From the NCBI GenBank assembly GCA_051362555.1, contig CM120646.1:5332001-5396000 (forward strand): 64,000 bases of DNA, read 5' to 3'. Below, piece by piece: positions 40,894-64,000 of this stretch (position 1 is the stretch's first letter; every line of letters starts with the position of its first letter). Under the pieces are notes generated by a model. The model was not told where the DNA came from. It was given only the letters and a program-made list of their open reading frames with translations, and ran no database searches. This DNA is from Lingula anatina (lineage: Eukaryota > Animalia > Brachiopoda). The position numbers and the translations under genes are program-made.

Positions 40894-42460
40894 AGGTCAA
40901 AGGTCAATTTCAAGGTCACAGTAAATTGCCAGTATATGACTTCCTATCCAACTTCAATAGTAACTATGGACCTATCTCTGCCAGTTTTGGAGATAAAAGG
41001 GAAGCAAAATTTGCAAAGTTCAGTTCATGGTGAAAAGTAGGTCAAAGGTCAATTTCAAGGTCACAGTAAGATTGCCAGTATATGACTTCCTATTCAACTT
41101 CAATAGTAACTATGGACCTATCTCTGCCAGTTTTGGAGATAAAAGGGAAGCAAAATTTGCAAAGTTCAGTTCATGGTGAAAAGTAGGTCAAAGGTCAATT
41201 TCAAGGTCACATTTAGATTGCCAGTATATGACTTCCTATTCAACTTCAATAGTAACTATGGACCTATCTCTGCCAGTTTTGGAGATAAAAGGGAAGCAAA
41301 ATTTGCAAAGTTCAGTTCATGGTGAAAAGAAGGTCAAAGGTCAATTTCAAGGTCACAGTAAAATTGCCAGTATATGACTTCCTATGCAAGTTCAATAGTA
41401 ACTATGGACCTATCTCTGCCAGTTTTGGAGATAAAAGGGAAGCAAATTTTGCAAAGTTCAGTTCAAGGTGAAAAGTAGGTCAAAGGTCAATTTCAAGGTC
41501 ACAGTAAAATTGCCAGTATATGACTTCCTATTCAAGTTCAATAGTAACTATGGACCTATCTCTGCCAGTTTTGGAGATAAAAGGGAAGCAAAATTTGCAA
41601 AGTTCAGTTCATGGTGATAAGTAGGTCAAAGGTCAATTTCAAGGTCACAGTAAGATTGCCAGTATATGACTTCCTATTCAACTTCAATAGTAACTATGGA
41701 CCTATCTCTGCCAGTTTTGGAGATAAAAGGGAAGCAAAATTTGCAAAGTTCAGTTCATGGTGAAAAGTAGGTCAAAGGTCAATTTCAAGGTCACATAAAG
41801 ATTGCCAGTATATGACTTCCTATTCAACTTCAATAGTAACTATGGACCTATCTCTGCCAGTTTTGGAGATAAAAGGGAAGCAAAATTTGCAAAGTTCAGT
41901 TCATGGTGAAAAGAAGGTCAAAGGTCAATTTCAAGGTCACAGTAAAATTGCCAGTATATGACTTCCTATGCAAGTTCAATAGTAACTATGGACCTATCTC
42001 TGCCAGTTTTGGAGATAAAAGGGAAGCAAATTTTGCAAAGTTCAGTTCAAGGTGAAAAGTAGGTCAAAGGTCAATTTCAAGGTCACAGTAAAATTGCCAG
42101 TATATGACTTCCTATTCAAGTTCAATAGTAACTATGGACCTATCTCTGCCAGTTTTGGAGATAAAAGGGAAGCAAAATTTGCAAAGTTCAGTTCATGGTG
42201 ATAAGAAGGTCAAAGGTCAATTTCAAGGTCACAGTAAGATTGCCAGTATATGACTTCCTATTCAACTTCAATAGTAACTATGGACCTATCTCTGCCAGTT
42301 TTGGAGATAAAAGGGAAGCAAAATTTGCAAAGTTCAGTTCATGGTGAAAAGTAGGTCAAAGGTCAATGTCAAGGTCACAGTAAGATTGCCAGTATATGAC
42401 TTCCTATTCAACTTCAATAGTAACTATGGACCTATCTCTGCCAGTTTTGGAGATATAAGG
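40894..42460. repeat. 146-bp satellite array, about 10.7 copies, inside the HINE
   Basis: aggtcaaaggtcaatttcaaggtcac starts at 40894, 41039, 41185, 41331 ... 42061, 42207 and 42353. Confidence 0.97.
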
Positions 42461-42707
42461 GACTAAATGTTATAATTTTGGAGTTACCATAATGTGCCAT
42501 AAATTTCCTACAGAAAAAATTAATTAAAATAAAGAAAAGGTCATTTTGGTCAAAGTTCTTGAAATGGGAGGTTCTCTGAAGTTGCAGAAGTTTAAATTTG
42601 ATAAAATAATGTCATTTTTGACCACAAGTTGTCTGCTTTGCCAAGCATTATGTTTTATTTTTCCGGAGTTCAAAATTTATTATCCATTACCGTACTGCAC
42701 ATTTTTA

Positions 42708-42995
42708 CGGAAGCCGACTGGTGCCATATGTTGAAAAAAAAAATTATCTCGAAATTTCGAGATAGCATTTTTTTTGTTCAAATTTCAAAATACTATCTCG
42801 AAATTTCGAGATAAATTTTTTTGCTCAAATATCAAAATGCTATCTCGAAATTTCGAGATAATTTTTTTTTTGTTCAAATTTCAAAATGCTATCTCGAAAT
42901 TTCGAGATAAAAATTTTTTTTGTTCAAATTTCAAAATAGTATCTCGAAATTTCGAGATAATTTTTTTTTCTACATATGGCACCAGTCGGCTTCCG
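42708..42995. mobile_element. Tc1/mariner-type MITE nested in the HINE
   Basis: Perfect TIR cggaagccgactggtgccatatg / catatggcaccagtcggcttccg with TA on both sides; five internal tatctcgaaatttcgagata palindromes. Confidence 0.88.
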
Positions 42996-44556
42996 TACAT
43001 TTTCCTTTCACCACCAATATGTACTTTCTGATACAGCGTAACTCGAAAACCGTATGGAATACAAAAAAACCGAGACCACCTCCAGTGTTGGGCTTTACAT
43101 GCTCTACAAAATGCAAAAAAGAATGGGTCTCTAGCATTAACGGTTCCCGAATTAGAGACAGTTTTCAGTTTCGGTATCTTATGGCCGCTACTCCTGTGAA
43201 AATGCACCGATTGACCCCAAATTCACGGAGATGAAAGATGACCTGAAGGGTAACACTTTCCAATAATATTATTGGTTAAGTCTGTGTGGCGTCTGAATAA
43301 CAGGGCAAAAAAATTTTTTTTCGTAAAAAATTTCATTTTTTTGAAAATTTTGACCCATTTGACCTTGAAGTAAAGGTCAAAGGTCAAATCCGAGGGTATA
43401 TTTGAAATCTACACATATGACTTTTGGAAAGCCGTCTATAGAAATTTTTCCCGTAACTCCTTCTGTAGGGTAGATAATTAGCATTTAATTTTGCCATTTT
43501 TAGACAAGGGTGCATTGCAATGAGTGCCACACCCAGACCCCAATACCGACAAAGCCCAAATTTTACGTGGAACGAGTTGAGATTATAGGTGACCTAAATC
43601 CATGAGATGGGTACGGGGGCCCTTACCGTCTAGGAGGAGAAGCGGTAACGGTAACATGGCGGCGGAGCCGGCGGAACGGACCGGACGGGACCGAAACCAT
43701 GTGTACCGCCAGCGCTAACGCTGGTGGTAAATTTTTTTGTTCAAATTTCAAAATAGTATCTCGAAATTTCCACATAATTTTTTTTTCTACATATGGCACC
43801 AGTGGGCTTCCGTACATTTTCCTTTCACCACCAATATGTACTTTTTGATACAGCGTAACTCGAAAACCGTATGGAATACAAAAAAACCGAGACCACCTCC
43901 AGTGTTGGGCTTTACATGCTCTACAAAATGCAAAAAAGAATGGGTCTCTAGCATTAACGGTTCCCGAATTAGAGACAGTTTTCAGTTTCGGTATCTTATG
44001 GCCGCTACTCCTGTGAAAATGCACCGATTGACCCCAAATTCACGGAGATGAAAGATGACCTGAAGGGTAACACTTTCCAATAATATTATTGGTTAAGTCT
44101 GTGTGGTGTCTGAATAACAGGGCAAAAAATTTTTTTTTCGTAAAAAATTTCATTTTTTTGAAAATTTTGGCCCATTTGACCTTGAAGTAAAGGTCAAAGG
44201 TCAAATCCGAGGGTATATTTGAAATCTACACATATGACTTTTGGAAAGCCGTCTGTAGAAATTTTTCCCGTAACTCCTTCCGTAGGGTAGATAATTAGCA
44301 TTTAATTTTGCCATTTTTGGACAAGGGTGCATTGCAATGAGTGCCACACCCAGACCCCAATACCGACAAAGCCCAAATTTTACGTGGAACGAGTTGAGAT
44401 TATAGGTGACCTAAATCCATGAGATGGGTATGGGGGGCCTTACCGTCTAGGAGGAGAAGCGGTAACGGTAGCCGTCCGGCGGAGCCGGCGGAGCCGGCGG
44501 AACGATCCGGACGAGACCGAAACCATGTGTACCGCCAGCGCTAACGCTGGTGGTAC
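42912..44556. repeat. ~817-bp tandem duplication (half MITE plus HINE 5' end)
   Basis: Near-identical ORFs at 42920 and 43737; junction gctggtggta|aatttttttgttcaaa near 43729. Confidence 0.93.
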
Positions 44557-46411
44557 AATGAACATCAACTTCTTTTATCTTTGATGTTAAAATAGAAATT
44601 GTCCTGTACAACAGAAAACGATGTCCCGTTCAAGACAAAGAGCAAAACTAATGTCTGAATTCCCCCACTTTATCCACTGAACAGTAGAACTGTCACCTTA
44701 ATTTCCACATGTCACTTTAGAATACGGTCACTGACCACTCAAAAATGTCCACTGTGGTCACATCATGCTTTCAAAGAAGAAAAAAAAACTTGATGAATCA
44801 TATTGATAACAGATGCCAGACGGTCAGGCTCCTCTTCAGTCTGGTGTACACCTGTTGTATCTTCACCCAAGTGTCCACTTCAGCTGGTAAAACACACGGT
44901 CCCCTTCAAACAGGATAACTTAATACCTTCACATTGTGCATACAAACTGCTTTCTATTGTCCAATTTCCGTCACACAAATTCTACTTACAGCAGGTTTGC
45001 CTTGACAACCCGGATAATCAGTTTTATCCTTTCCCTTAGTGCACCCAACAATTAATCCCCAATTAGCTTCAATATTAAGCATCCAAGACAGGTGCCCCCT
45101 GTTGGTTCTTTTTCGTCACTGACGAGGATTTTTAATATATGGTAAGCAATATTCAGTTTCCTGGGCCCAAATATTAAGTATGGGGACCAAACATCTGGAT
45201 GGAGTCACTTTTTGAATGTTTTGATTGCCTAAGTGAGGCTCAATTTACCTTAACGTACCTTGCACAAACATTGATTGTGATTTAGTGCAAAGTGGGTGTA
45301 AACTTGGGGTTATTAGCATTGATGAAGGCAGGCCATGTTTTCAGATGAAATTCTTTGCGTAAATGTGCAGCATTGTGATTTGTTTACAGTCCGTTTGGCA
45401 AGAAAAACAAAGTGAAGCTGCACCAACAAAAGACCACTGCTTCATTAACATGATCAGAGTAAAAGCTCACATCAGATGATATTACGTATAAGACAACATG
45501 AACTGCTTCAACTTTTCTATAATCAAAATTGCTTACCAGTGACTGTGTTTGAAAAATTGTTTAAATCAAGTCGTTTTTCCCCAGGAAATAGTTGAAAAAA
45601 TATCAACTAGTATGTCTGTTATTGTCATTATATTTAAAAACTTTTCATGCTCACCTTGAAAACTTATAGAAACATACATGCCCATAATCAATTAACATAA
45701 TTAAAACATATTCCAAATTATAATCTCTGACATAGAAAGCATTAATAGAGTATAATGGTTTATTTCTTTAAGATTTTTTCCTGATACTTATAAAAAGGAA
45801 TAAGATCTTGAGTAAATATTCCAAATAAAAACAGATGTCACTAGATCTCTTTGCATAAAGATGTTCATCAGTTGCTTGTGATTCAACTGCAAAGTTACCA
45901 CAACATTCAATATTGGTCATTGTTTTTATGTTCAGTAATAATACAGACTCATTTACTGCAGAAACCAATATTAATCACCAAGGCAAATCATGGACAATAA
46001 TTTAGACTAATTCTCCTTTTTCAAATCAGTTTCAGCAAGATTGTGTTAGTTGAGACAGGTCAGATTGTGCTGTACAAGATCGTCTGGTTGAGAGTGAAGC
46101 TGTAGGTTAAAAGTTGTCAGCAGAAGCCCCTACATACTTCATAATATCAATCTACAAATGTGAGTGCTCAGAAATATTCAAAATATTTTCTTTACTGTTG
46201 CTAAAAATATAGAAAAGAAGTTAATAGAATGAGGAGGAAGAAGAACTGAAGTTCATCATTTTTGAGAAACTTCACCATAATTTCCAGTGTTACAAGAGTG
46301 GAGAGTCATCCAACCTAGAATGTCATAAACCATATCAGCTGTTTTCTCATATTACCTGACTTTACACAATCTAGATTGTAGATTGACCCCAAAACCTGAC
46401 CTTGACGACAC

Positions 46412-49140
46412 TTAGGTCTGACCTTCGCCTTTTGCCTGGTCTTTATCTTCAACAGGTCTAAGACCTCTGATAGTAACATCATATACAACTTCCTCCACTT
46501 TCTTCAGATCATATTTGAGGGCATCAAACCTTTTACGTAGTGAGTCATTTTTAAGATTTAACAGTCTGAACCCGGAGTCCAATTCTCCGACAAATTTGGC
46601 AATTCTCATAGGACGGCCATAATCTCCAGCAGTAACAGAGTTGACAGCAAGGCGGGACTGGAAAAACATAAAATAAATAAATAAACATATCTGTATTTAA
46701 CAGACTAAGTGGTGACCTGTTTAAATGTCCAAGAAATCTTCTCTATGTAACAAAAATATATGGTTAAAAAAATAAATAAATACAAAAATAATCAAAAAGA
46801 TTAATATTTTTACTTTTTTTAATGTTAAGATAATAAAAACCCAATATGTAACAATCAGAAGTGAAAATTGACTTTCATCTGTAATTATCATACAGGCAAA
46901 AAGCAAATAAAATTCAAATACTGAAAAATCGTCAAAGAAACAAAGGTCACATATTTCATAAAATTAATCACAATTCTTCAGAATTCATCTCTCTTACTAA
47001 TTATAAGTAATGTGAAAACTACTTCCAGATCTTACCAGTTCACTTGCCAGCTGCAATAGTCCCATCAAGAAGTCATCCAAATCAATATGGAACCCTTCTC
47101 CTCTGATAACTTTCACTGGAAAATAAATCTTTGACATTTAAATATGCTAAAATAAATATATATATTTTAATAAAACAATGCTCCTTTCATTCCTTGTATG
47201 ATTTTGGTAAGTTAAAAAATTTCTGCATGAAACATGATAGTAAAAATCACAAATAATGTAAAATCAGCAGGCAAAAAATCCCCTATGCATACAAGTCTTA
47301 CCTGAGAGCCTATGACCTCTAACTTGGTAAATCACATTGAATTGAACTGCCTTTTTTTTCTTATAAACATAAATTCATTTTCTATGAAAAAAATCTGTAT
47401 CATAAACCACATACACATAAACCTACAATCTTCACTGTATGGAAACCTTTGGTGGCATAAAACTCAACTGCAATATATTTATAAAATTCAATTACACATT
47501 TTCTCAAAAGTAAAAAAAAAATTCTCATTTGAACAAAATGAAATCATAAAAGGATATATGCTATAATATCTTACCTTGTAATACACTGGCTACCTCCTCC
47601 CTAGTAACAAGTGTCTCCTGTTCCAAGTAATGAATATATGCTATAATAAAGACAAGTCTTTGACTCACAAACCTCCAGTGGTCATGGTATCTGAAAATAA
47701 TAAAAAAAAACCTTAATACTGTTTACTAGAAGACTACAGACAGGGTTTGCATACTTTTAGTAATTATGTTATTAAAATATTTTAAAAAATATTTTGGATG
47801 TCATGCATATCACATATGACTTCACAGAATACAGAAGAGAGTGGCAAAAGAAAGAATGGCAAAGTAGCATGTGCAGTGCAACAATGAATAAAAGCTGATT
47901 TACTGCACCCATGAATATTTCTCTGATCCTTTTCTCTAAGGTCTTGTGAATTACAATCTATTGCACACTAGTGCAATTTTACCATGTTTTGTATCTTGCT
48001 TTAATTAGTATTTTTAGCTATATGGAAATCCAAGTGCAAAAAGTTTTGCCCTTATTGCAAAATAGTTTACCCAACCTTCAGTGGATTATTTATTTATTTA
48101 TTTTTATTTATTTATTTTTTTTTTCTGTCATGCATAACATCACACAGTGCAGAAAGCCTCATTTTAGGCTAGCTTAGATGATTTTTAAAAATTAAATTAA
48201 AATTAAACATTTGATAGGACTGTACCTGTAATATTCATCCTTGGGGATCTTGGCTGCTAAATCTGCTAGCTGCTGTCTTATCACTGGGAACATGGCTCTG
48301 CTTTTAGCACACACATCAGATACTGGGGAGATAATGTCAGCATTTCATGCATCATACTAATCAAGTTTAACACCTTATCAGAATTAGAAAGACTAAATAA
48401 TTATCACTGAAAACAAAATAGCCATTTCTAAACTAACCCTGAATATGTACAAAAGTTAAATTCACAAATTTGGTCTTTTTTGAATGTGGATTAAAATTGT
48501 GAATAATGGTGTACTTCTTTTTCATTCATCTATTATTTTTCACCTTAGAATGAAGTTATAAATCATGCATCTCTTTCACAATAACTGACAGAGTCCAGAG
48601 CCAACTTTTGTAGCTAAGGTTTTTACTTTAATAAATAGGACTGTTTCATATAATCACAGGAATACTCAGATACCACATTGTACAAATAATAATAATAATA
48701 CAATTGCAGTGTTTATTATAATAAGAACTCGATCTTGTCAATGTTGGGAAATTGTGAATTTTAGAGATATTGTATTTTTCAAGTCATAATTTCTTGAAAT
48801 TAGAGCATTCCTATCGAGTGCTAGCAACAAAATTAAAACCAGGTTACTCTATACTGCAGTACTTCCATTCTGTGCAGTAAGAGCATCACAGAAATATAAT
48901 TTTTGAGATTATAAAATTATGCATCTGAAAGTTTGATAATTTTTGCCCATTGAAAAAAATGAGTCATTACTGTACCTACCATGTTTTATTCCCTCAGGCT
49001 GGTGCACAGACTGCAGGACTGTCAGCACTTCTCTAGCTGACTGCTCTAATGTTCGTACCAGCACACGGATTTCCTGAACACAAAAAGCTCTTTTAACAAT
49101 CTTATAAGAGTGCTTCATGCGTCTCATGCATTACTGTGTG

Positions 49141-49171
<31 letters not shown>

Positions 49172-49415
49172 TTGTGTGTCTGTGTTAATCTTCATCCAAA
49201 TACCGTGTAGAGTCAATCACTTTCAAGAATCAGTGAATGCCAATGAACTACCAGAAGAGTACTTGTCATAAAAATATATTTAAATCATGATTAAGAAAGT
49301 ATAAATAAGCAATTAACAAGGAAATCTTGGAACCAACCTCTCTCATATCTTGCTCTTTTGTTATATAGTCCTGAAAAGAGGAAAAAATGTCCTGGGGCGA
49401 CTTGTTTTCTGTCAT
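46412..49415 (-). CDS. TSN: Translin, 6 exons: 49415-49338, 49073-48980, 48322-48226, 47690-47575, 47115-47036, 46657-46412 (711 nt, 236 aa)
   Basis: MTENKSPQDIFSSFQDYITKEQDMREEIR...YYRYHDHWRFVSQRLVF...GFHIDLDDFLMGLLQLASELSRLAVNSVTAGDY...GFRLLNLKNDSLRKRFDALKYDLKKVEEVVYDVTIRGL are hallmark translin motifs. All introns are GT-AG with consistent phases. Confidence 0.96.
49145..49184. repeat. (TG)n microsatellite in translin intron 1
   Basis: Visible run. Confidence 0.9.
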
Positions 49416-51724
49416 CGCTGCCTGAAATTTCGATCCACATGTATCAGCTCGGTAATTAGGTCAAGTGTAGGTCCGCACTTTACAGTCCGAATCGTCATTT
49501 CGATTTATAAGAAAAATTAAAAATTAAAGTAATTTTTTAAAAACTGTTTCAGAAAAAAAAATTGTTAGTTATAGAAGGTGACGTGTTTTTTTTTTAAGTG
49601 CATTAAGTGACACGGCATTTAAACTGTCACGTATGTTACCTCGTTCGTAAGTCACGCAGACGATGCCTTAACGGGGTAAACAGTGTTTAGGCCTACTCTA
49701 TATTCTTACAGCAGTAAAATACATATTCTGGTGCTTAGGCTACTGAGAGTACTGCCCGTCCCTTCTGTTTAGTTGGGACACCACGTTTCTTTGGTGGCCG
49801 AACGGAGACCATTAATGCAATATTACAAAATGCTTCATAGCAAAATCACCACCAATTTTATAATCTTTTACTGTAAAATAAAATACCAAATTTTTCGGGG
49901 TCCTTCAGAGGGGGGAGGTCAGCTAAGCATCTGCGGACCCTCCCCCTACCTTCAAATAACCCTGAATCCGCCCCTGAGTAAAAAAGGTTTTTAAAAAGGT
50001 TTTTAAAAAACCTTTTGGATAATATTCGCACCTTATTGATACGAACAAAAATTAGACTGCGCTAAAGGGGTATTACGAGATGCACATTTATTTCACTGAC
50101 ACATTTTGTCATCAACTTTACAATAACTGTTTTCACAGTCTAGCTGAAGATCAATTACAATGCCTGTTAGCGAAGTTTTTGCAAATTACAGCTATGAGAA
50201 GGCAGCTTCGTCTAAAACAATTAATTAACTGTGTCTTGTCTTGTTGTCGCTATTCATGGATTTAACTGAACTGAAGATTCTTTAAATGACTAAAATATTA
50301 CAAAAACATCAAACAACTAAAAATAATGATCTGCGGCAAAAGACCTCAGGCATTTTTTCTCGATTTTTAAAAGCGAGGTGACACGTACCGCAACGTATAG
50401 TAGCGGTGATCTATTTAAATAAACGTAAACAAAGGCATTTTCTAAATCATCATACTCGCTTCTTGATTCTGTACTTAAGTGAAAATAAACTAGATCGATT
50501 GGAGAATGTGAGATGGCGCTGCGAACAACAGTAACGATGATTTAATTTTTAGTCCGTTCATGTTTTTCAACGAAAACATTCATAATAAGAAATTGACCAT
50601 TAAAATGTAAGCCCTTTCAGCAAGTTAAGTTGTATGCTCGCCAGTGAGATGTGTAATGATGGCCACTCAGACTTATAACAATGTTAAAACACGTGCAGTT
50701 TTCAACTAAGGTTTAAGGGGACAAAGTAAACGTATAAATGTGAAATGTTTAATTTCAATTTTTATCTTATTGCCTTATTCATTATTTTTCCTTTTTTTTC
50801 TCTATTCATGCTACTGGTATCAGAGTAGTGGCAACACAGAGCCATGAAGGGAGGCGTCCGTTGTTAATAAGTGGTGGATTTGGGGGGGGGGGAGTGGGTC
50901 AGGACCTTACGATTTCTGAAAAAAAATCACACCAGTGAAAATAGAATTTTGACTAGCTGAATCATAGTTCTAAACCGTACCAAATGGCACCGTTCGCCCT
51001 CTTAAATACCAAATAATTCCTGGGCCCTTCAGGGGGCCATGAAACCCACGCCAAGGGGGGGGGGGGGTCGGCTTCTCATCCGCGGACCCCCCTTCAAAAA
51101 TTCTGGATCCGCCCCTGATTACTATATCAGTCGATGTTTTATACGCAAAAATATTCATTTGTTTCTACTACCTGGTATAAGTTAATCAAGATTTTTCATG
51201 TGACCTGCTGCTGGTTTTCTTTGTTTCACAATTACTTGTTGTTCATTTTTCAGAGTAACAAATCAGTCGATTGTAAAATGTGTTTTAGAGCACTGAGGTG
51301 GCTGTATATGGCAAGTCCAGCGTACTTTCAATGTGACTCATTACAATTCACTACAATGGAAACAACCATGTTCCCTCAGGCTGCCTCGAAAATGCACTCA
51401 CTTTACGCCCTATTACATTATCCACATTTTGATCATTGTTGGAATACACACGTACTATTGTGACGTGGCCTGCGAGAAGTTCAGTTTAACGGACATCGTG
51501 TCTATTATAATTTTGGGGAGAAGGTATGTTTAATCAGCAATTGTCATCAAATTTGCCTGTACATTTCGAAGTCACTGCTTAGTTTCTATTACTCTTATAT
51601 TAAAATAAAGTGATAAACAGAATAATCAAAATAAAAATAGTAAATAAAAAGTGTATGTTAGTTAGATCTTATAATCAATTTTCCGCATCACTATCAAACG
51701 CCATTCCCTATGAACAAGTTGACC

Positions 51725-51806
51725 ATTGGTGACAACAGGAACGCCACCACGTGACAATATATCACTGAAGGTATAAAAGCGCGAATTTTTGAAATTGCGT
51801 TCATTC
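51725..51806 (+). promoter_or_regulatory. RNA Pol II core promoter: reverse CCAAT (51725), E-box CACGTG (51748), TATAAAAG (51772), Inr TCATTC (+1 about 51803)
   Basis: The first T of the TATA box sits at -31 from the Inr A and the CCAAT box at about -78, both canonical positions. The sequence becomes GC/CpG-richer from here. Confidence 0.7.
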
Positions 51807-51832
51807 AACGCAGACAGATCTGGAGCAACAAG

Positions 51833-52003
51833 ATGGATGCCATGTGCTGCGCCACGTATCAAGCAAAAAGGACAAAGGAGTCGACTCCCATTTCGCCGAA
51901 TGTTTTCCTCATCCCAAGCCAACGCATCGCTCATCGAAATGTTTCTTGCACAAGCAGTCGTCTGGACGGTGGATTCGACGTGTCTCTAAGCTGGCCAGCT
52001 TAA
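51833..52003 (+). CDS. 56-aa first ORF of the putative repeat transcript (MDAMCCATYQAKRTKESTPISPNVFLIPSQRIAHRNVSCTSSRLDGGFDVSLSWPA)
   Basis: First ATG after the predicted TSS, in strong context aacaagATGG; TAA at 52001. No recognisable homology. Confidence 0.3.
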   Translation: MDAMCCATYQAKRTKESTPISPNVFLIPSQRIAHRNVSCTSSRLDGGFDVSLSWPA

Positions 52004-52156
52004 ACCTTCTCTTCTCTTCTCTCCACGAGGAATCGTCGCTCAGGAATCTTCGCAGGATACATCGTCGGATTTCTGCTGTTGTGGGCTGTATTGTTGTGGT
52101 GTCATTGCATGTATTTCTATGCATTCCAGGTTTCTTCTTATTGCAGGTCCAGGAAG

Positions 52157-53082
52157 CAGAGTGCTGACATAGGTAGAAAATCTCATTAATTTTCCTTTTT
52201 ACTTTCTGTTTACAGTCGATTCTGTCGATTTCTGTCAATTCTCGACAGAGCTCCCACTGACAACTGCAAGGAGAAGAGGGCTACATCTACACGACACATA
52301 CTTCGATCAATCCTTGGTGCGAACGAGTCCTGCCATAGTCTACGAGATGGCTCCATTGGGGAAGCGTCCAGAGAGCCCTGCCACGGTCTGTCTACAAGGT
52401 GGCTGCGTTGGGGAAACGTCCAAGGCATATGGTGTTTCAATGAGATAGAAAACCGTTAAAGGTAAGCATGATTGCAGAGTAATAATAATAATAATAGCAA
52501 CAATAATAAAAACAATAATAAGAATAATTATTTTGATAATCTTTATTGAAATATTGCTGACATAGGTAGGAAAACTCGTTAATTTTCCTTTTTTCTTCCT
52601 GTTTACAGAGCCCCATTATTGCGATTCTCGACAGAGCTCCCACTGACAACTGCAAGGAGAAGAGGGCCACATCTACACGTCACATACGTCGATCAATCCT
52701 TGGTGCCAGCGAGTCCTGCCTTGGTCTGTCTACGAGATGGCTGCATTGTGGGAGCGTCCAGCGAGTCCTGTCATGGTCCGTGTACGAGGTGGCTGCATAT
52801 GGGTAGCGTCCAGCTTGGAGCAAGCCCTGCCATGGTCCATCTACCAGGTGGCTGCATTGGGTAAGCGTCCAGCGAGCCCTGCCATGGTCCGTCTACTAGG
52901 TGGCTGCATTGGGTAAGCGTCCAGCGAGCCCTGCCATGGTCCGTCTACGAGGTGGCTGCATTATAGGAGCGTCCAGCGAGTCCTGCCATGGTCCGTCTAC
53001 GAGGTGGCTGCACTGGGGAAGCGTCCAAGGCATATGGTGTTTAAATGAGATGAAAACCGTTAAAGGTAAGCCTGATTGCAGA

Positions 53083-53119
<37 letters not shown>

Positions 53120-54644
53120 GAATAATTATTTTGATAATCTTTATTGAAATATTGCTGACATAGGTAGGAAAACTCGTTAATTTTCCTTTTTTCTTCCTGT
53201 TTACAGAGCCCCATTATTGCGATTCTCGACAGAGCTCCCACTGACAACTACAAGGAGAAGAGGGCCACATCTACACGTCACATACGTCGATCAATCCTTG
53301 GTGCCAGCGAGTCCTGTCATGGTCCGTGTACGAGGTGGCTGCATTGGGGAAACGTCCAAGGCATATGATGTTTCAATGAGATGAAAAACCGCTTAAGGTA
53401 AGCCGTGATATTAGGGAGAGAAATAGACTTAATTTTTTCGGTTGCAGTCTGTGTCCTAAACCTTTCAACTTACTGGCCATTCGGACTTCAACTTTCCTAA
53501 AATCTACCGTTCTGAATTGGGATTCACTGGTCCGAATACAAATTCCAATAAAACTGGACTGGGTTGCATTTTAATATTATTAACAAGACCTTGACATTTT
53601 TAGAATCATGATGTAACAGTTAAATTAAATTAAGTCAAATTGAAAGGTCTTATAAAAATCGTAGAAAAAAATCTGTTCATATCACTAAATTCATTCATTC
53701 TGGTCTGTCTACAGGTGGCTGCAATGGGGAAGCGTCCAGCGAGCCCTGCCATGGTCCGTCTATGAGGTGGCTGCATTGAGGTAGTGTCCAGCGAGCCCTG
53801 CCATGGTCCGTCTATGAGGTGGCTGCATTGGGGAACCGTCCAGCGAGCCATTCTAGGTAAGCATGATTGCAGAGTGCTGACATAGGTAGAAAAACTTATT
53901 AATTTTCCTTTTTCCTTCCCTTTATTTTTCTTTTCTTATTAACAAGACCTTGACATTTTTAGAATCATGATGTAACAGTTAGATTAAAATTAAGTCAAAT
54001 TAAAAGGTCTTGTAAAAACGAAGAAAAAAATCTTCTGTTCATATCACTAAATTCATTGATTCTGGTCTGTCTACAGCTGCATTGTGGAGCGTTCAGCGAG
54101 TCCTGCCATGGTCCGTCTACGAGGTGGCTGCATTGGGGAAGCGTCCATCGAGCCCTGCCAAGGTCCGTCTACGAGGTGGCTGCATTGGGGAAGCGTCCAG
54201 CGAAGCCTGCCATGGTCCGTCTACTAGGTGGCTGCATTGGGGAAGCGTCCATCGAGCCCTCCCAAGGTCCGTCTACGATGTGGCTGCATTGGGGAAGCGT
54301 CCAGCGAACCGTTAAAGGTAAGCATGATTGCAGAGTGCTGACATAGGTAGAAAAACTTATTAATTTTCCTTTTTTCTTTCTGTCTACAGAGTCCCATCAT
54401 TGCGATTCTCGACAGAGCTTCCACTGACAACTGCAAGGAGAAGAGGGCCACATCTACATGTCACATACTTCGATCATTCCTTGGTGCCAACGAGTCCTGC
54501 CATAGTCTACGAGATGGCTTCATTGGGGAAGCGTCCAGAGAGCCCTGCAATGGTCCGTCTACAAGGTGGCTGCATTGGGGAATCGTCCAAGGCATATGGT
54601 GTTTCAATGAGATGAAAACCGTTAAAGGTAAGCCTGATTGCAGA

Positions 54645-54680
<36 letters not shown>

Positions 54681-57600
54681 GCAACAATAATAAAAATAAT
54701 AATAAGAATAATTATTTTGATAATCTTTATTGAAATATTGCTGACATAGGTAGGAAAACTCGTTAATTTTCCTTTTTTCTTCCTGTTTACAGAGCCCTAT
54801 TATTGCGATTCTCGACAGAGCTCCCACTAAAAACTACAAGGAGAAGAGGGCTACATCTACACGTCACATACGTCGATCAATCCTTGGTGCCAGCGAGTCC
54901 TGCCTTGCTCTGTCTACGAGGTGGCTGCATTGTGGGAGCGTCCAGCGAGTCCTGTCATGGTCCGTGTACGAGGTGGCTGCGTATGGGTAGCGTCCAGCTT
55001 TGAGCAAGCCCTGTCACGGTCCGTATACTAGGTGGCTGCATTGGGGAAGCGTCCAGCGAGCCCTGCCATGGTCCGTCTACGAGGTGGCTGCATTGGGGAA
55101 GCGTCCAAGGCATATGGTGTTTCAATGAGATGAAAAACCGCTTAAGGTAAGCCGTGATATTAGGGAGAGAAATAGACTTAATTTTTTCGGTTGCAGTCTG
55201 TGTCCTAAACCTTTCAACTTACTGGCCATTCGGACTTCAACTTTCCTAAAATCTACTGGTCTGAATTGGGATTCACTGGTCCGAATACAAATTCCAATAA
55301 AACTGGACTGGGTTGCATTTTAATATTATTAACAAGACCTTGACATTTTTAGAATCATGATGTAACAGTTAAATTAAATTAAGTCAAATTGAAAGGTCTT
55401 ATAAAAATCGTAGAAAAAATCTGTTCATATCACTAAATTCATTCATTCTGGTCTGTCTACAGGTGGCTGCATTGGGGAAGCGTCAAGCGAGCCCTGCCAT
55501 GGTCCGTCTACGATGTGGCTGCATTGGGGAAGCGTCCAGCGAGCCCTGCCATGGTCCGTCTATGAGGTGGCTGCATTGGGGAACCGTCCAGCGAACCGTT
55601 CAATGTAAGCATGATTGCAGAGTGCTGACATAGGTAGAAAAACTTATTAATTTTCCTTTTTTCTTCCCTTTTTTTCTTTTCTTATTAACAAGACCTTGAC
55701 ATTTTTAGAATCATGATGTAACAGTTAGATTAAAATTAAGTCAAATTAAAAGGTCTTATAAAAACGAAGAAAAAAATCTTCTGTTCATATCACTAAATTC
55801 ATTGATTCTGGTCTGTCTACAGCTGCAATGGGGAGGCGTCCAGCAAGTCCTGCCATGGTCCGTCTACGAGGTGGCTGCATTGGGGAAGCGTCCAGCGAGC
55901 CCTGCCAAGGTCCGTCTACGAGGTGGCTGCATTGGGGAAGCATCCATCGAGTCCTGCCATGGTCCGTCTACGAGGTGGCTGCATTGGGGAAGCATCAAGC
56001 GAGCCCTGCCAAGGTCCGTCTACGATGTGGCTGCATTGGGGAAGCGTCCAGCGAGCCCTGCCATGGTCCGTCTACTAGGTGGCTGCATTGGGGAAGCGTC
56101 CAGCGAACCGTTAAAGGTAAGCATGATTGCAGAGTGCTGACATAGGTAGAAAAACTTATTAATTTTCCTTTTTCCTTCCCTTTTTTTCTTTTCTTATTAA
56201 CAAGACCTTGACATTTTTAGAATCATGATGTAACAGTTAGATTAAAATCAAGTCAAATTAAAAGGTCTTATAAAAACGAAGAAAAAAATCTTCTGTTCAT
56301 ATCACTAAATTCATTGATTCTGGTCTGTCTACAGCTGCAATGGGGAGGCGTCCAGCAAGTCCTGCCATGGTCCGTCTACGAGGTGGCTGCATTGGGGAAG
56401 CGTCCAGCGAGCCCTGCCAAGGTCCGTCTACGAGGTGGCTGCATTGGGGAAGCATCCATCGAGTCCTGCCATGGTCCGTGTACGAGGTGGCTGCATTGGG
56501 GAAGCGTCAAGCGAGCCCTGCCAAGGTCCGTCTACGATGTGGCTGCATTGGGGAAGCGTCCAGCGAGCCCTGCCATGGTCCGTCTACTAGGTGGCTGCAT
56601 TGGGGAAGCGTCCAGCGAACCGTTAAAGGTAAGCATGATTGCAGAGTGCTGACATAGGTAGAAAAACTTATTAATTTTCCTTTTTTCTTTCTGTTTACAG
56701 AGTCCCATCATTGCGATTCTCGACAGAGCTCCCACTGACAACTGCAAGGAGAAGAGGGCCACATCTACATGTCACATACTTCGATCATTCCTTGGTGCCA
56801 ACGAGTCCTGCCATAGTCTACGAGATGGCTCCATTGGGGAAGCGTCCAAGGCATATGGTGTTTAAATGAGATGAAAACCTTTAAAGGTAAGCCTGATTGC
56901 AGAGTAATAATAATAATAATAATAATAATAATAGCAACAATAATAAAAATAATAATAAGAATAATTATTTTGATAATCTTTATTGAAATATTGCTGACAT
57001 AGGTAGGAAAACTGGTTAATTTTCCTTTTTTCTTCCTGTTAACAGAGCCCCATTATTGCGATTCTCGACAGAGCTCCCACTGAAAACTACAAGGAGAAGA
57101 GGGCTACATCTACACGTCACATACGTCGATCAATCCTTGGTGCCAGCGAGTCCTGCCTTGGCCTGTCTACGAGGTGGCTGCATTGTGGGAGCGTCCAGCG
57201 AGTCCTGTCATGGTCCGTGTACGAGGTGGCTGCGTATGGGTAGCGTCCAGCTTGGAGCAAGCCCTGTCACGGTCCGTGTACTAGGTGGCTGCATTGGGGA
57301 AGCGTCCAGCGAGCCCTGTCAAGGTCCGTCTACGAGGTGGCTGCATTGGGGAAGCGTCCAAGGCATATGGTGTTTCAATGAGATGAAAAACCGCTTAAGG
57401 TAAGCCGTGATATTAGGGAGAGAAATAGACTTAATTTTTTCGGTTGCAGTCTGTGTCCTAAACCTTTCAACTTACTGGCCATTCGGACTTCAACTTTCCT
57501 AAAATCTACCGGTCTGAATTGGGATTCACTGGTCCGAATACAAATTCCAATAAAACTGGACTGGGTTGCATTTAAAAATTATTAACAAGACCTTGACATT

Positions 57601-60600
57601 TTTAGAATCATGATGTAACAGTTAAATTAAATTAAGTCAAATTGAAAGGTCTTATAAAAATCGTAGAAAAAAATCTGTTCATATCACTAAATTCATTCAT
57701 TCTGGTCTGTCTATAGGTGGCAGCAATGGGGAAGCGTCCAGCGAGCCCTGCCATGGTCCGTCTACGAGGAGGCTGCATTGAGGTAGTGTCCAGCGAGCCC
57801 TGCTATGGTCCGTCTATGAGGTGGCTGCATTGGGGAACCGTCCAGCGAACCGTTCAAGGTAAGCATGATTGCAGAGTGCTGACATAGGTAGAAAAACTTA
57901 TTAATTTTCCTTTTTCCTTCCCTTTTTTTCTTTTCTTATTAACAAGACCTTGACATTTTTAGAATCATGATGTAACAGTTAGATTAAAATTAAGTCAAAT
58001 TAAAAGGTCTTATAAAAACGAAGAAAAAAATCTTCTGTTCATATCACTAAATTCATTGATTCTGGTCTGTCTACAGCTGCAATGGGGAAGCGTCCAGCAA
58101 GTCCTGCCATGGTCCGTCTACGAGGTGGCTGCAATGGGGAAGCGTCCAGCGAGCCCTGTCAAGGTCCGTCTACGAGGTGGCTGCACTGGGGAAGCGTCCA
58201 GCGAGCCCTGCCATGGTCCGTCTACTAGGTGGCTGCATTGGGGAAGCGTCCAGCGAACCGTTAAAGGTAAGCCTGATTGCAGAGTGCTGACATAGGTAGA
58301 AAAACCTATTAATTTTCCGTTTTTCTTTCTGTTTACAGAGTCCCATCATTGCGATTCTCGACAGAGCTCCCACTGACAACTGCAAGGAGAAGAGGGCCAC
58401 ATCTACATGTCACATACTTCGACCATTCCTTGGTGCCAACGAGTCCTGCCATAGTCTACGAGATGGCTCCATTGGGGAAGCGTCCAGAGAGCCCTGCTAT
58501 GGTCCGTCTACAAGGTGGCTGCATTGGGGAAACGTCCAAGGCATATGGTGTTTCAATGAGATGAAAACCGTTAAAGGTAAGCCTGATTGCAGAGTAATAA
58601 TAATAATTATGATAATAATAATAATAATAGCAACAATAATAAAAACAATAATAAGAATAATTATTTTGATAATCTTTATTGAAAGGTAGAAAAACTCGTT
58701 AATTTTCCTTTTTTCTTCCTGTTTACAGAGCCCCATTATTGCGATTCTCGACAGAGCTCCCACTGAAAACTACAAGAAGAGGGCTACATCTACACGTCAC
58801 GTACGTCGATCAATCCTTGGTGCCAGCGAGTCCTGCCTTGGTCTGGCTACGAGGTGGCTGCATTGTGGGAGCGTCCAGCGAGTCCTGTCATGGTCCGTGT
58901 ACGAGGTGGCTGCGTATGGGTAGCGTCCAGCTTGGAGCAAGCCCTGCCACGGTCCGTGTACTAGGTGGCTGCATTGGGGAAGCGTCCAAGCCATATGGTG
59001 TTTCAATGAGACGAAAAACCGCTTAAGGTAAGCCGTGATATTAGGGAGAGATATAGACTTAATTTTTTCGGTTGCAGTCTGTGTCCTAAAACTTCCAACT
59101 TACTGGCCATTCGGACTTCAACTTTCCTAAAATCTACCGGTCTGAATTGGGATTCACTGGTCCGAATACAAATTCCAATAAAACTGGACTGGGTTGCATT
59201 TTAATATTATTTACAAGACCTTGCCATTTTTAGAATCATGATGTGACAGTTAGATTAAAATTAAGTCAAATTAAAAGGTCTTATAAAAACGAAGAAAAAA
59301 ATCTTCTGTTCATATCACTAAATTCATTGATTCTGGTCTGTCTACAGCTGCAATGGGGAGGCGCCCAGCGAGTACTGCCATGGTCTGTCTACGAGGTGGC
59401 TGCATTGGGGAAGCGTCCAGCGAACCGTTAAAGGTAAGCATGATTGCAGAGTGCTGACATAGGTAGAAAAACTTATTAATTTTCCTTTTTCCTTCTTTTT
59501 ATTTTTCTTTTCTTATTAACAAGACCTTGACATTTTTAGAATCATGATGTAACAGTTAGATTAAAATTAAGTCAAATTAAAAGGTCTTATAAAAACGAAG
59601 AAAAAATCTTCTGTTCATATCACTAAATTCATTGATTCTGGTCTGTCTACAGCTGCAGTGGGGAGGCGCCCAGCGAGTACTGCCATGGTCTGTCTACGAG
59701 GTGGCTGCATTGTGGAGCGTTCAGCGAGTCCTGCCATGGTCCGTCTACGAGGTGGCTGCATTGGGGAAGCGTCCATCGAGCCCTGCCAAGGTCCGTCTAC
59801 TAGGTGGCTGCATTGGGGAAGTGTCCAGCGAACCGTTAAAGGTAAGCATGATTGCAGAGTGCTGACATAGGTAGAAAAACTTATTAATTTTCCTTTTTTT
59901 CTTTCTGTTTACAGAGTCCCATCATTGCGATTCTCGACAGAGCTCCCACTGACAACTGCAAGGAGAAGAGGGCCACATCTACATGTCACATACTTCGATC
60001 ATTCCTTGGTGCCAACGAGTCCTGCCATAGTCTACGAGATGGCTCCATTGGGGAAGCGTCCAGAGAGCCCTGCCATGGTCCGTCTACAAGGTGGCTGCAT
60101 TGGGGAAACGTCCAAGGCATATGGTGTTTCAATGAGATGAAAACCGTTAAAGGTAAGCCTGATTGCAGAGTAATAATAATAATAATAATAATAATAGTAA
60201 TAATAATAGCAACAATAATAAAAACAATAATAAGAATAATTATTTTGATAATCTTTATTGAAATATTGCTGACATAGGTAGGAAAACTCGTTAATTTTCC
60301 TTTTTTCTTCCTGTTTACAGAACCCCATTCTTGCGATTCTCGACAGCGCTCCCACTGAAAACTGCAAGGAGAAGAAGGCCACATCTACATGTCACATACT
60401 TCGATCATTCCTTGGTGCCAACGAGTCCTGCCATAGTCTACGAGATGGCTCCATTGGGGAAGCGTCCAGAGAGCCCTGCTATGGTCCGTCTACAAGGTGG
60501 CTGCATTGGGGAAACGTCCAAGGCATATGGTGTTTCAATGAGATGAAAACCGTTAAAGGTAAGCCTGATTGCAGAGTAATAATAATAATTATGATAATAA

Positions 60601-63075
60601 TAATAATAATAGCAACAATAATAAAAACAATAATAAGAATAATTATTTTGATAATCTTTATTGAAAGGTAGAAAAACTCGTTAATTTTCCTTTTTTCTTC
60701 CTGTTTACAGAGCCCCATTATTGCGATTCTCGACAGAGCTCCCACTGAAAACTACAAGAAGAGGGCTACATCTACACGTCACGTACGTCGATCAATCCTT
60801 GGTGCCAGCGAGTCCTGCCTTGGTCTGGCTACGAGGTGGCTGCATTGTGGGAGCGTCCAGCGAGTCCTGTCATGGTCCGTGTACGAGGTGGCTGCGTATG
60901 GGTAGCGTCCAGCTTGGAGCAAGCCCTGCCACGGTCCGTGTACTAGGTGGCTGCATTGGGGAAGCGTCCAAGCCATATGGTGTTTCAATGAGACGAAAAA
61001 CCGCTTAAGGTAAGCCGTGATATTAGGGAGAGATATAGACTTAATTTTTTCGGTTGCAGTCTGTGTCCTAAAACTTCCAACTTACTGGCCATTCGGACTT
61101 CAACTTTCCTAAAATCTACCGGTCTGAATTGGGATTCACTGGTCCGAATACAAATTCCAATAAAACTGGACTGGGTTGCATTTTAATATTATTTACAAGA
61201 CCTTGCCATTTTTAGAATCATGATGTGACAGTTAGATTAAAATTAAGTCAAATTAAAAGGTCTTATAAAAACGAAGAAAAAAATCTTCTGTTCATATCAC
61301 TAAATTCATTGATTCTGGTCTGTCTACAGCTGCAATGGGGAGGCGCCCAGCGAGTACTGCCATGGTCTGTCTACGAGGTGGCTGCATTGGGGAAGCGTCC
61401 AGCGAACCGTTAAAGGTAAGCATGATTGCAGAGTGCTGACATAGGTAGAAAAACTTATTAATTTTCCTTTTTCCTTCTTTTTATTTTTCTTTTCTTATTA
61501 ACAAGACCTTGACATTTTTAGAATCATGATGTAACAGTTAGATTAAAATTAAGTCAAATTAAAAGGTCTTATAAAAACGAAGAAAAAATCTTCTGTTCAT
61601 ATCACTAAATTCATTGATTCTGGTCTGTCTACAGCTGCAGTGGGGAGGCGCCCAGCGAGTACTGCCATGGTCTGTCTACGAGGTGGCTGCATTGTGGAGC
61701 GTTCAGCGAGTCCTGCCATGGTCCGTCTACGAGGTGGCTGCATTGGGGAAGCGTCCATCGAGCCCTGCCAAGGTCCGTCTACTAGGTGGCTGCATTGGGG
61801 AAGTGTCCAGCGAACCGTTAAAGGTAAGCATGATTGCAGAGTGCTGACATAGGTAGAAAAACTTATTAATTTTCCTTTTTTTCTTTCTGTTTACAGAGTC
61901 CCATCATTGCGATTCTCGACAGAGCTCCCACTGACAACTGCAAGGAGAAGAGGGCCACATCTACATGTCACATACTTCGATCATTCCTTGGTGCCAACGA
62001 GTCCTGCCATAGTCTACGAGATGGCTCCATTGGGGAAGCGTCCAGAGAGCCCTGCCATGGTCCGTCTACAAGGTGGCTGCATTGGGGAAACGTCCAAGGC
62101 ATATGGTGTTTCAATGAGATGAAAACCGTTAAAGGTAAGCCTGATTGCAGAGTAATAATAATAATAATAATAATAATAGTAATAATAATAGCAACAATAA
62201 TAAAAACAATAATAAGAATAATTATTTTGATAATCTTTATTGAAATATTGCTGACATAGGTAGGAAAACTCGTTAATTTTCCTTTTTTCTTCCTGTTTAC
62301 AGAACCCCATTCTTGCGATTCTCGACAGCGCTCCCACTGAAAACTGCAAGGAGAAGAAGGCCACATCTACATGTCACATACTTCGATCATTCCTTGGTGC
62401 CAACGAGTCCTGCCATAGTCTACGAGATGGCTCCATTGGGGAAGCGTCCAGAGAGCCCTGCCATGGTCCGTCTACAAGGTGGCTGCATTGGGGAAACGTC
62501 CAAGGCATATGGTGTTTCAATGAGATGAAAACCGTTAAAGGTAAGCCTGATTGCAGAGTAATAATAATAATAATAATAGTAATAATAATAGCAACAATAA
62601 TAAAAATAATAATAAGAATAATTATTTTGATAATCTTTATTAAAATATTGCTGACATAGGTAGGAAAACTCGTTAATTTTCCTTTTTTCTTCCTGTTTAC
62701 AGAACCCCATTCTTGCGATTCTCGACAGCGCTCCCACTGAAAACTGCAAGGAGAAGAGGGCCACATCTACACGTCACATACGTCGATCAATCCTTGGTGC
62801 CAGCGAGTCCTGCCTTGGTCCGTCTACGAGGTGGTTGCATTGGGGAAGCGTCCAGCGAGTCCTGCCATGGTCCGTCTACGAGGTGGCTGCATTGGGGAAG
62901 CGTCCAGCGAGTCCTGCCATGGTCCGTCTACGAGGTGGCTGCGTCCACTGAGCCCTGCTATGGTCCGTGAACGAGGTGGCTGCGTCCACCGAGCCCTGCT
63001 ATGGTTCGTGTACGAGGTGGCTGCATTGGGGTAGCGTCCATCTAGCCCTGCCATGGTCCGTGTACGAAGTGGCGT
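52157..63075 (+). repeat. 11-kb complex macrosatellite: 52-bp units, (AAT)n tracts and higher-order duplications of about 406, 512 and 1982 bp
   Basis: Unit gagccctgccatggtccgtctacgaggtggctgcattggggaagcgtccagc (for example spacing 54124/54176/54228/54280). ORF-track offsets are 55802/56314 (512), 59925/60331 (406), and 58739/60721 and 59925/61907 (1982). Confidence 0.97.
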
Positions 63076-63426
63076 CTGGTCCGATGATTGTCCACTGTCA
63101 CAAGGTTAAAATGGAGAAAGCGATATCAGCATATGGGATTTCAAGAGACCTTGCCTAGTTGTGATACCATTGGGACTTGGGCCCTTTAAGGTAAGTTTTG
63201 GGCCAGGGTAAGGGGTGATAAATGCACTAAATTGTTATTCATACTATAGATATTATAAATTTTGTGCAAGGCCTTAGACAAAATTGCTTTAAATTACTGT
63301 TCGGAAACCGTTTTCTAGTAACTAAATGTAGATATTTGTTTTATATTTACTCAAGGAAATTGACATTTTAGAATCCAAAAACTTTCAATTTGTCACAAAC
63401 TTGAAAAAAGAATTCATGCAAAATAT

Positions 63427-63465
63427 TGACAAGCTATCGACCAACTTTCAGGTCTTCATCAGTCC
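63427..63465 (-). other. Second degenerate minimal hammerhead-like motif
   Basis: Minus strand reads gga CUGAUGA a gacc ugaaaguu gguc GAUA gcuu guc. Stem II is intact, but GAAA is GAUA and stem I is poor. Confidence 0.35.
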
Positions 63466-64000
63466 TCGGTCTCCAAGTGACGTTGTTTAACTGGTCTAGA
63501 GTGCTAGAAACTAACACCCCACCACCCCAAGTGCTGTGGTTGTGGTACTAAGAGGCCATCGTACAGGTAAGCATCTGTTTTCAGCTGTTTATATGGTCGA
63601 GTTCGTTAGGCGTTTTCGTGATCCATATGCCTTCCTATATTTTTCTTATGCTCTAGTCGCTTTCTTTTTGTAGAATATTGGCACTCTCCTTTACCATGTG
63701 GTTTTCTTAAGTTAATATAGAATATATAGAAAATAGATATAGATATAGAAAAAAATAAAGTAGAAAAAACAAATTAGAAAAAAATAACCAAAGCCTTATG
63801 AAACGCCAAAATACTTATTAGTTTTAACATTAGTTTTAACAGTGTGTAAATACCAGTGTCATATCCTTTGTTGCAATTACTGCAAGCTTTCCATTGCTTT
63901 TCATACTTGAGTGAACATGTTGCATTTCATTTGTAGGCTACGAAAGGGCAGTTTTCCAACATTAATGCCCGAAAGCAGATACCAACAATCCTAGCCCAAA

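What the first reader, a model, noticed from the sequence alone, without database searches (positions are those of the whole stretch)
51725..64000. An 11-kb 'satellite' that looks like a promoter-driven spliced gene of about 25 tandemly amplified exon-intron cassettes
Seen: GC-rich blocks strictly alternate with AT-rich blocks. Almost every GC block ends in AG|GTAAGC (one copy, at 55605, is AT|GTAAGC). Every AT block ends in either a pyrimidine tract plus ctgtttacag or cactaaat...ctgtctacag. All sites are on the + strand, downstream of a canonical TATA/Inr promoter, and the pattern continues into unique sequence (donors 63191 and 63567, exon 63452-63566). There are only about four intron types: ~72 nt, ~150-170 nt with (AAT)n, ~220 nt and ~317 nt. 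Exons differ in their number of 52-nt units and do not keep a reading frame when joined (phase 0 in, phase 1 out, then TGA). Inference: a modular repeat lncRNA, a possible invertebrate analogue of Firre/DXZ4-type macrosatellite transcripts, whose spliced RNA would display about 75 copies of one motif as a multivalent scaffold. I do not recognise it as a described gene.
Basis: partly seen in the sequence, partly recalled or inferred. Interest (0 to 1): 0.88.

Follow-up and report, generated by a model that had tools for sequence, protein, structure and literature searches.

The report
Brachiopod spliced repeat-cassette RNA family
This 11-kb repeat in a lamp-shell (brachiopod) genome is built of 25 copied exon-intron blocks behind a promoter-like sequence, and related sequences are transcribed and spliced, so it is likely one copy of a multi-copy family of probably non-coding RNAs whose role is untested.

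Summary
The anatomy is real: 25 GT-AG introns of four classes, all on the + strand, in an (ABCD) higher-order array with about 70 copies of a 52-nt exon motif, behind a CCAAT/E-box/TATA/Inr element set. The neighbouring translin matches Lingula anatina. RNA-seq reads lie on the exons in sense orientation and cross two predicted junctions, 52461>52609 (8 reads) and 63566>63937 (12 reads). But only 12 of 1444 laid reads are 99% or more alike; most are 86-95% alike, also in the unique 5' and 3' parts. Two NCBI 'uncharacterized' L. anatina gene models on other-sized contigs join the same modules at the same junction. So this is most likely one member of a multi-copy, spliced, probably non-coding Lingula RNA family, not a single-locus Firre analogue; this copy's own expression is not shown. 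No Rfam family, stable structure, reading frame or exon constraint was found. Scaffold function is untested; a transposon interior cannot be excluded because the 3' end and the genome were not available.

The parts
51725..51806 (+). Pol II promoter-like element set: inverted CCAAT 51725-29, E-box 51748-53, TATA 51772-79, Inr 51801-06 (predicted start 51803)
   Evidence: stranded run X1 has no depth before 51817, but the start site is not mapped
51803..52215 (+). Unique 5' region; 56-aa ORF 51833-52003 without Pfam match; 52156-52215 is a D-type intron 3' end without its donor; first donor unresolved
   Evidence: covered by sense reads with diverged loose ends
52216..63190 (+). Array of 26 GC-rich exons (86-488 nt) made of a start module, 1-6 copies of a 52-nt unit and an end module, separated by 25 introns
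52462..52608 (+). Type A intron (D plus an (AAT)n insert); others begin at 53066, 54628, 56887, 58577, 60153, 60559, 62135, 62541. Junction 52461>52609 seen in RNA
   Evidence: 8 junction reads in 3 of 4 runs
53398..53714 (+). Type B intron; others begin at 55147, 57400, 59028, 61010. Splicing not tested
53857..54076 (+). Type C intron, a chimera of the 5' 61 nt of D and the 3' ~140 nt of B; others begin at 55605, 56117, 57859, 59434, 61416. Splicing not tested
   Evidence: alignments
54318..54389 (+). Type D intron; others begin at 56629, 58267, 59842, 61824
53939..54016 (+). Imperfect AT-rich hairpin in B/C introns (11 copies; z -1.1 to -3.2); no Rfam family
53066..62134 (+). Five higher-order ABCD units (1562-2259 nt), 2.1-3.6% apart, except the last two, which are identical
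58424..62461 (+). Mismatch-free tandem duplication with period 1982 (58424-60479 equals 60406-62461): very recent, or an assembly duplication
63042..63190 (+). Unique 3' end of the last cassette exon, donor at 63191; intron 63191-63451
   Evidence: sense depth 12-30 in X1-X3; the junction itself is not among the rows shown
63452..63566 (+). Unique exon; intron 63567-63936 follows
63937..64000 (+). Unique exon that runs off the window; junction 63566>63937 seen in RNA
   Evidence: 12 junction reads in 3 of 4 runs
46412..49415 (-). Neighbouring translin gene, head to head, about 2.4 kb from the predicted start; not part of the unit

Best explanation
This block of 25 exon-intron cassettes is likely one copy of a multi-copy Lingula family whose related sequences are transcribed in sense and spliced, whose array probably grew by unequal crossing-over, and whose product is likely a non-coding RNA that would act, if at all, by showing many copies of the 52-nt motif to RNA-binding proteins. 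Shown: the anatomy; sense poly(A)/oligo-dT reads on exons; two GT-AG junctions; diverged read classes in the unique 5' and 3' parts; no kept frame. Inferred: (1) a CCAAT/E-box/TATA/Inr promoter starts Pol II near 51803; (2) copies spread as DNA, since they keep introns; (3) within a copy, two ancestral introns (D and B) gave rise to A (triplet insertion) and C (D/B recombinant), and the ABCD unit was then multiplied, each breakpoint carrying whole splice sites along, so splicing survives without needing selection; (4) the spliced RNA has stops in all frames upstream of many junctions, so it would be nuclear-retained or decay by NMD rather than make a conserved protein; (5) motif display is the only product left once protein and small-RNA payload are set aside, and constraint on it looks weak. 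This particular copy appears weakly expressed or silent in the runs tested.
For: Anatomy. Junction 52461>52609 with GT..AG ends in X1 (2 reads), X7 (3), X9 (3), none in X4, of 195 reads laid; junction 63566>63937 in X1 (2), X2 (8), X3 (2), none in X9, of 1249 laid. In X1-X3 depth is almost all from first mates on the minus strand (for example 186 vs 0 at 62834-62885), meaning + strand RNA if the libraries are of the usual stranded kind; the GT..AG ends give the same strand independently. Reads 99% or more alike: 2 of 195 and 10 of 1249. One run (X1) holds two 5' loose-end classes that differ from each other at 6 of 30 letters (compared by eye); at 63148 X1-X3 show two other letters and at most 1 of 82 reads keeps the window's. 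NCBI models XP_013382232.1 and XP_013398288.1 (contigs up to 346 kb and 36 kb; translin's cluster up to 824 kb) are 88% identical to each other over 140 aa, match only 52242-63094 on + (101 and 85 tblastn pieces), and end in a peptide that parallels the window's predicted A/D junction read-through up to the same stop. An X1 loose end translates, by eye, to 9 of 10 residues of XP_013382232.1, tying the expressed reads to that other copy. Joined exons carry 38-42 stops per frame; linkers between cassettes in reads differ by 1 nt (13 vs 14). Intron derivation and unit divergence.
Against: No evidence that the RNA binds anything or is nuclear. Exons differ by 4.2% and introns by 1.7% between copies (1.6-2.7% for the two exon classes with little unit shuffling), so no exon constraint is seen. 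The 52-mer array folds less stably than shuffles (z +2.3, +3.5). Invariant GT/AG in 25 related copies is expected at this low divergence and is no proof of selection (my inference). L. anatina is suspected to hold cryptic species (PMC8146825), and I laid no reads on translin as a control, so part of the read divergence may be between populations. The two NCBI models could be on contigs that break next to translin. Only 2 of 27 predicted junctions were seen; only 2.9 kb of the 12.3 kb was laid. The genome was not available, so copy number, dispersal and ends are not measured.
Confidence: 0.5

Rival explanations
1. It is the interior of a large non-autonomous DNA transposon (CACTA-, Helitron- or Polinton-like) that carries its own promoter and a decayed spliced transcript; the RNA is a by-product.
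For: Several diverged, intron-keeping copies; no constraint seen; internal tandem arrays are common in non-autonomous DNA elements (recalled); PMC13121700 reports recent repeat expansions in L. anatina, mainly LTR elements (passage).
Against: No long terminal repeat or inverted-repeat pair in 44400-52300, no match of the 5' or 3' unique parts elsewhere in the window beyond a common 70-nt short repeat, no transposon domain in the ORFs scanned. The far end lies outside the window, so termini could not be compared.
Confidence: 0.25
2. It is a host or precursor for small RNAs: an SNHG14-like array releasing an intronic RNA from B/C introns, or a single-strand piRNA precursor.
For: Tandem exon-intron units with stop-rich exons are the SNHG14 layout (PMC13326403, passages); introns are less diverged than exons; a hairpin ends about 65 nt before the B/C acceptor; transcription is one-stranded and differs strongly between runs (1 read in X4 against 41-79 in the others).
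Against: No Rfam match at gathering threshold in 51000-64000 and only one chance-level hit in 51000-56000 (E 4.1); no tRNA; hairpin z is -1.1 to -3.2, with 10 of 11 copies weaker than -3, and 1 of 60 control windows also below -3; no proper C/D box pair seen by eye; loose ends suggest that the 5' half of the D-like intron differs in other copies. No small-RNA run was available, so the piRNA version is untested.
Confidence: 0.12
3. It is a single-locus, Firre-like scaffold lncRNA next to translin, and the diverged reads come from the orthologue in other populations or cryptic species.
For: Exonic repeat with intronic repeats as in Firre (PMC4820808, passages); cryptic species are suspected in L. 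anatina; a few X7/X9 reads carry the window's letters in the 5' region.
Against: Two strongly different 5' classes within one run, and two NCBI models 88% identical to each other and only 52-72% to the window's frame, while translin is identical in its first 26 and last 81 residues. Firre's repeats are defined as local to one locus.
Confidence: 0.08
4. It is a protein-coding repeat gene, as NCBI annotates the other copies, and this copy is a pseudogene.
For: The 52-mer is open in all three + frames, giving a 52-residue repeating peptide; the joined exons hold an ATG-ORF of 243 aa; two models of 215 and 147 aa exist.
Against: The unit length is not a multiple of three; 38-42 stops per frame; the 243-aa ORF starts 2319 nt into the RNA; no Pfam family; Atlas model pLDDT 0.31 with best look-alike 0.84, a level that shuffled proteins reach; only two relatives among 5.8 billion clusters, both Lingula; 1-nt indels between read variants.
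Confidence: 0.05

Closest known systems
Firre lncRNA with its exonic RRD repeat (PMC4820808; passages read)
   Same: Spliced non-coding gene in which one repeat fills many exons (7 of 13 human, 11 of 23 mouse) and other repeats fill the introns.
   Different: Firre's repeats are local to one syntenic locus and RRD is a tested nuclear-retention signal bound by hnRNPU. Here the whole gene appears multi-copy, cassettes are strictly tandem in an ABCD order with a minisatellite inside the exons, and no function is tested. No sequence comparison with Firre was run.
SNHG14 / SNORD116 host array (PMC13326403; passages read)
   Same: One promoter, a long run of tandem exon-intron units in distinct groups that expand recently and are homogenised.
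   Different: SNHG14 introns carry C/D snoRNAs; none is detected here, units are ten times or more shorter than I recall for SNHG14, and introns are only 72-320 nt.
NCBI gene models LOC106153014 (XP_013382232.1) and LOC106164805 (XP_013398288.1), Lingula anatina
   Same: Same 52-nt unit read in successive frames, same start and end modules, same junction and stop: members of the same family.
   Different: Annotated only as uncharacterized proteins; 52-72% identical to the window's frame; shorter; their DNA could not be fetched.
Epstein-Barr virus IR1 (W-repeat) exon pairs of EBNA-LP (recalled, not looked up)
   Same: A variable number of tandem DNA repeats, each adding spliced exons to one RNA.
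   Different: EBNA-LP keeps an open frame and makes a protein; this array does not.
Non-autonomous DNA transposons with internal tandem arrays (Helentron/CACTA derivatives; recalled)
   Same: Multi-copy, lineage-restricted, variable-number internal repeats.
   Different: No termini or transposase seen here; a full promoter and dozens of canonical introns are not typical of them as I recall.

Membership tests
Firre-type local-repeat lncRNA | Spliced, non-coding transcript with a repeat in many exons | tested here: met
   Anatomy and stops; two junctions in RNA of the family
Firre-type local-repeat lncRNA | Repeats confined to one locus | tested here: not met
   Diverged read classes and two other gene models; indirect, no genome search possible
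Firre-type local-repeat lncRNA | Nuclear retention and protein binding through the repeat | not testable with these tools
   Needs FISH, fractionation, pull-down
Firre-type local-repeat lncRNA | Syntenic conservation across species | not testable with these tools
   No animal genome collection; protein-level search found Lingula only
snoRNA/miRNA host array (SNHG14 type) | Tandem exon-intron units under one promoter | tested here: met
snoRNA/miRNA host array (SNHG14 type) | A structured small RNA in each intron | tested here: not met
   No Rfam hit; weak, variable hairpin; a novel small RNA is not excluded without small-RNA data
piRNA precursor | One-strand Pol II transcript | tested here: met
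   X1-X3 strand
piRNA precursor | Yields 1U-biased 24-32 nt RNAs | not testable with these tools
   No small-RNA run was listed
DNA transposon (non-autonomous) | Multiple genomic copies that keep introns | tested here: inconclusive
   Indirect support from reads and gene models; copy number unknown
DNA transposon (non-autonomous) | Defined termini and target-site duplication | tested here: inconclusive
   None seen on the 5' side; 3' end outside the window
Protein-coding gene | A conserved open frame across exons and copies | tested here: not met

The most novel reading that the evidence does not exclude
An undescribed class of self-amplifying non-coding 'cassette genes': intron-keeping units that spread as DNA with their own Pol II promoter, tune the number of exon-intron cassettes per copy, and whose spliced RNAs show dozens of one 52-nt motif as a stage- or tissue-regulated multivalent scaffold in brachiopods.
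Probability: 0.15. Interest if true: 0.8.

Novelty: new variant of a known kind. Interest (0 to 1): 0.52.

Why it matters
It is a read-supported case of a satellite-like array whose monomer is a working exon-intron cassette, caught with its history readable (two ancestral introns, a recombinant, a triplet insertion, a five-fold higher-order unit, a perfect 2-kb duplicate). That makes the route from a non-coding gene to a macrosatellite testable in a spiralian with public genomes and RNA-seq. It also indicates that two NCBI 'proteins' are probably mis-called pieces of a non-coding family. If the RNA proved functional, it would extend repeat-scaffold lncRNAs to a multi-copy invertebrate form.

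Tried and rejected
No indexed RNA holder was listed; nine same-label raw-read runs were, of which six were laid (X1, X2, X3, X4, X7, X9). Motif scans of metagenome contigs found 0 matches twice; one 18-nt match in a viral contig (L001) has no similar flanks by eye and is treated as chance. Rfam, ARAGORN: nothing. Mirtron reading of the D intron rejected (z -0.16). Homology between intron B and the unique intron 63191-63451, suspected by eye, was not supported in the part of the blastn output shown (7-nt words only). LTR reading rejected weakly: no long direct repeat on the 5' side and no AATAAA on + between 51803 and 52504. The HMMER search of protein representatives never ran, so distant relatives in other brachiopods are not excluded. 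Literature: three motif strings in full text gave 0 papers; searches on Lingula with lncRNA, repeat, transposable element, piRNA and on tandemly repeated exons gave no description of this family in the listings; PMC13121700 has no occurrence of 'lncRNA', 'non-coding' or 'satellite' in its main text and none of six terms, the two LOC ids among them, in the 3 supplements held as text; its other data files and the supplements of PMC4595640 were not seen. The LOC ids were not searched across the library. Zero depth inside A introns is partly due to masking of the AAT run and is not used as evidence.
Full report
Observation. Reading 51000-64000 and parsing it confirms 25 introns between 52462 and 62702, all GTAAGC...AG on the + strand, 24 of 25 with AG before the donor. 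They fall in four classes, A (141-168 nt, 9 copies), B (316-320, 5), C (218-220, 6) and D (72-73, 5), in the order AABCDABCCDABCDABCDAABCDAA. Two unique introns follow (63191-63451, 63567-63936). The 26 array exons are 86-488 nt and hold 73 copies of the first half of a 52-nt unit, 44 near full length. An inverted CCAAT box, an E-box, a TATA box and an Inr lie at -78, -55, -31 and +1 relative to 51803; the set of four was found once in the window and in 0 of 100 simulations. I recall the same order of elements in the adenovirus major late promoter and in many NF-Y/USF cellular promoters; that is a recollection, not a test.

How the array was built (inferred). A equals D with an (AAT)n-rich insert; C joins the first 61 nt of D to the last ~140 nt of B. 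Five ABCD units differ by 2.1-3.6%, except the last two, which are identical; 58424-60479 equals 60406-62461 without a mismatch, so that step is very recent or an assembly duplication. Unequal exchange between shared modules explains all of this and carries splice sites along. Between copies of the same class, introns differ by 1.7% and exons by 4.2% (1.6-2.7% in the classes with little unit shuffling; the duplicated stretch was left out), so there is no sign of exon constraint.

Organism. The upstream minus-strand gene is translin; its last exon is 100% identical over 80 aa to L. anatina translin, the only hit at E 1e-40 among 941 candidates, and the first 26 and last 81 residues match exactly.

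Transcription. Six of nine listed same-label RNA runs were laid on two stretches that together cover 2.9 kb. On 51300-52700, 79, 1, 41 and 74 reads were laid from X1, X4, X7 and X9; junction 52461>52609 (GT..AG) stands in 2, 0, 3 and 3 reads. On 62470-64000, 401, 422, 283 and 143 reads were laid from X1, X2, X3 and X9; junction 63566>63937 stands in 2, 8, 2 and 0 reads; unique exons are covered in X1-X3 (depth about 10-30) and hardly in X9; 63198-63353 has almost no depth. X1-X3 are one-stranded in the sense expected for + strand RNA. Some loose ends run into introns, so intron retention or pre-mRNA is present too.

The reads are mostly not from this copy. Only 2 of 195 and 10 of 1249 are 99% or more alike; most are 86-95%, including in the unique 5' and 3' parts. 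Reported heterozygosity is 1.6% (PMC4595640, passage). X1 alone holds two 5' classes that differ at 6 of 30 letters (by eye). A search with the translated 52-mer array found exactly two proteins, among 105 and 2 candidates: NCBI uncharacterized L. anatina models XP_013382232.1 and XP_013398288.1. They are 88% identical to each other, match only the array on +, and their last residues parallel the window's predicted A/D junction through to the same stop. The simplest reading is a family of at least three diverged copies. Against this: cryptic species are suspected in L. anatina (PMC8146825, passages), runs may be pooled animals, no translin control was laid, and contig lengths are only indirect evidence of separate loci. 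A few X7 and X9 reads carry the window's letters, but these runs also show depth near 1 upstream of the promoter, so this copy's own expression is not established.

Coding and small-RNA tests. Joined exons have 38-42 stops per frame; the first ATG opens 56 aa with no Pfam match; the longest ATG-ORF (243 aa) starts 2319 nt in and exists because the 52-mer is open in three frames. The NCBI models have no Pfam family and the first has a pLDDT of 0.31 and no convincing look-alike. Rfam and ARAGORN find nothing. The 52-mer array folds worse than shuffles, which can follow from repetition itself. A hairpin in B/C introns scores z -1.1 to -3.2 over 11 copies (-4.1 for the best copy), too variable to call a small RNA.

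Verdict. Best reading (0.5): one copy of a multi-copy, spliced, probably non-coding Lingula RNA family, spread as DNA, its middle grown by unequal exchange, the RNA acting if at all by motif display. Rivals: transposon interior (0.25), small-RNA host or piRNA precursor (0.12), single-locus Firre analogue (0.08), coding gene (0.05). It works like Firre or SNHG14 in layout (PMC4820808 and PMC13326403, passages only) but fails a defining test of each: repeats are not local, and no intronic small RNA is detected. I found no description of the family in the searches listed under Tried and rejected, which cover open-access text only. An earlier scan note from another genome (e1-9814498) describes a satellite with one-sided splice signals but no RNA data; it is an unchecked lead, not support. 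I rate this a new variant of a known kind, interest 0.52.

Noticed in passing
window 53701-53720 and all B/C acceptors: The B/C acceptor is one deleted base away from the 52-nt unit itself, and a one-base variant of the unit creates donor-like sites inside exons (52861, 52913). The unit may be a decayed mini exon-intron piece, or a source of new splice sites; seen by eye.
   Followed up: no
window 62900-63024: Three copies of a 41-nt variant of the unit (11-nt deletion) close the array; RNA depth drops sharply there, so expressed copies seem to lack it.
   Followed up: partly
window 63644-63689: A 45-nt intronic piece is covered by about 11-28 sense reads in X1-X3 with loose ends on both sides: shared with another transcript, perhaps a paralogue's exon or 3' end.
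   Followed up: no
window 17654-24004 (+): Exons of a receptor kinase (transmembrane stretch, kinase domain by Pfam, 613-aa tail); looks like a BMP type II receptor to me (recalled, not tested).
   Followed up: partly
window 28981-30729 (-): 582-aa open frame with no Pfam match.
   Followed up: partly
window 40871-42462 and 15817-16310: Tandem arrays of 146 nt (10.9 copies) and 161 nt (3.1 copies) rich in AGGTCA-like words.
   Followed up: no
window 42881-44410: About 800-nt block present twice in tandem (near-identical ORF translations); no Pfam match for the 138-aa frame.
   Followed up: partly
window 49910-49980 and 51059-51121: Two copies, 73% alike, of a short GC-rich repeat between translin and the promoter.
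   Followed up: no
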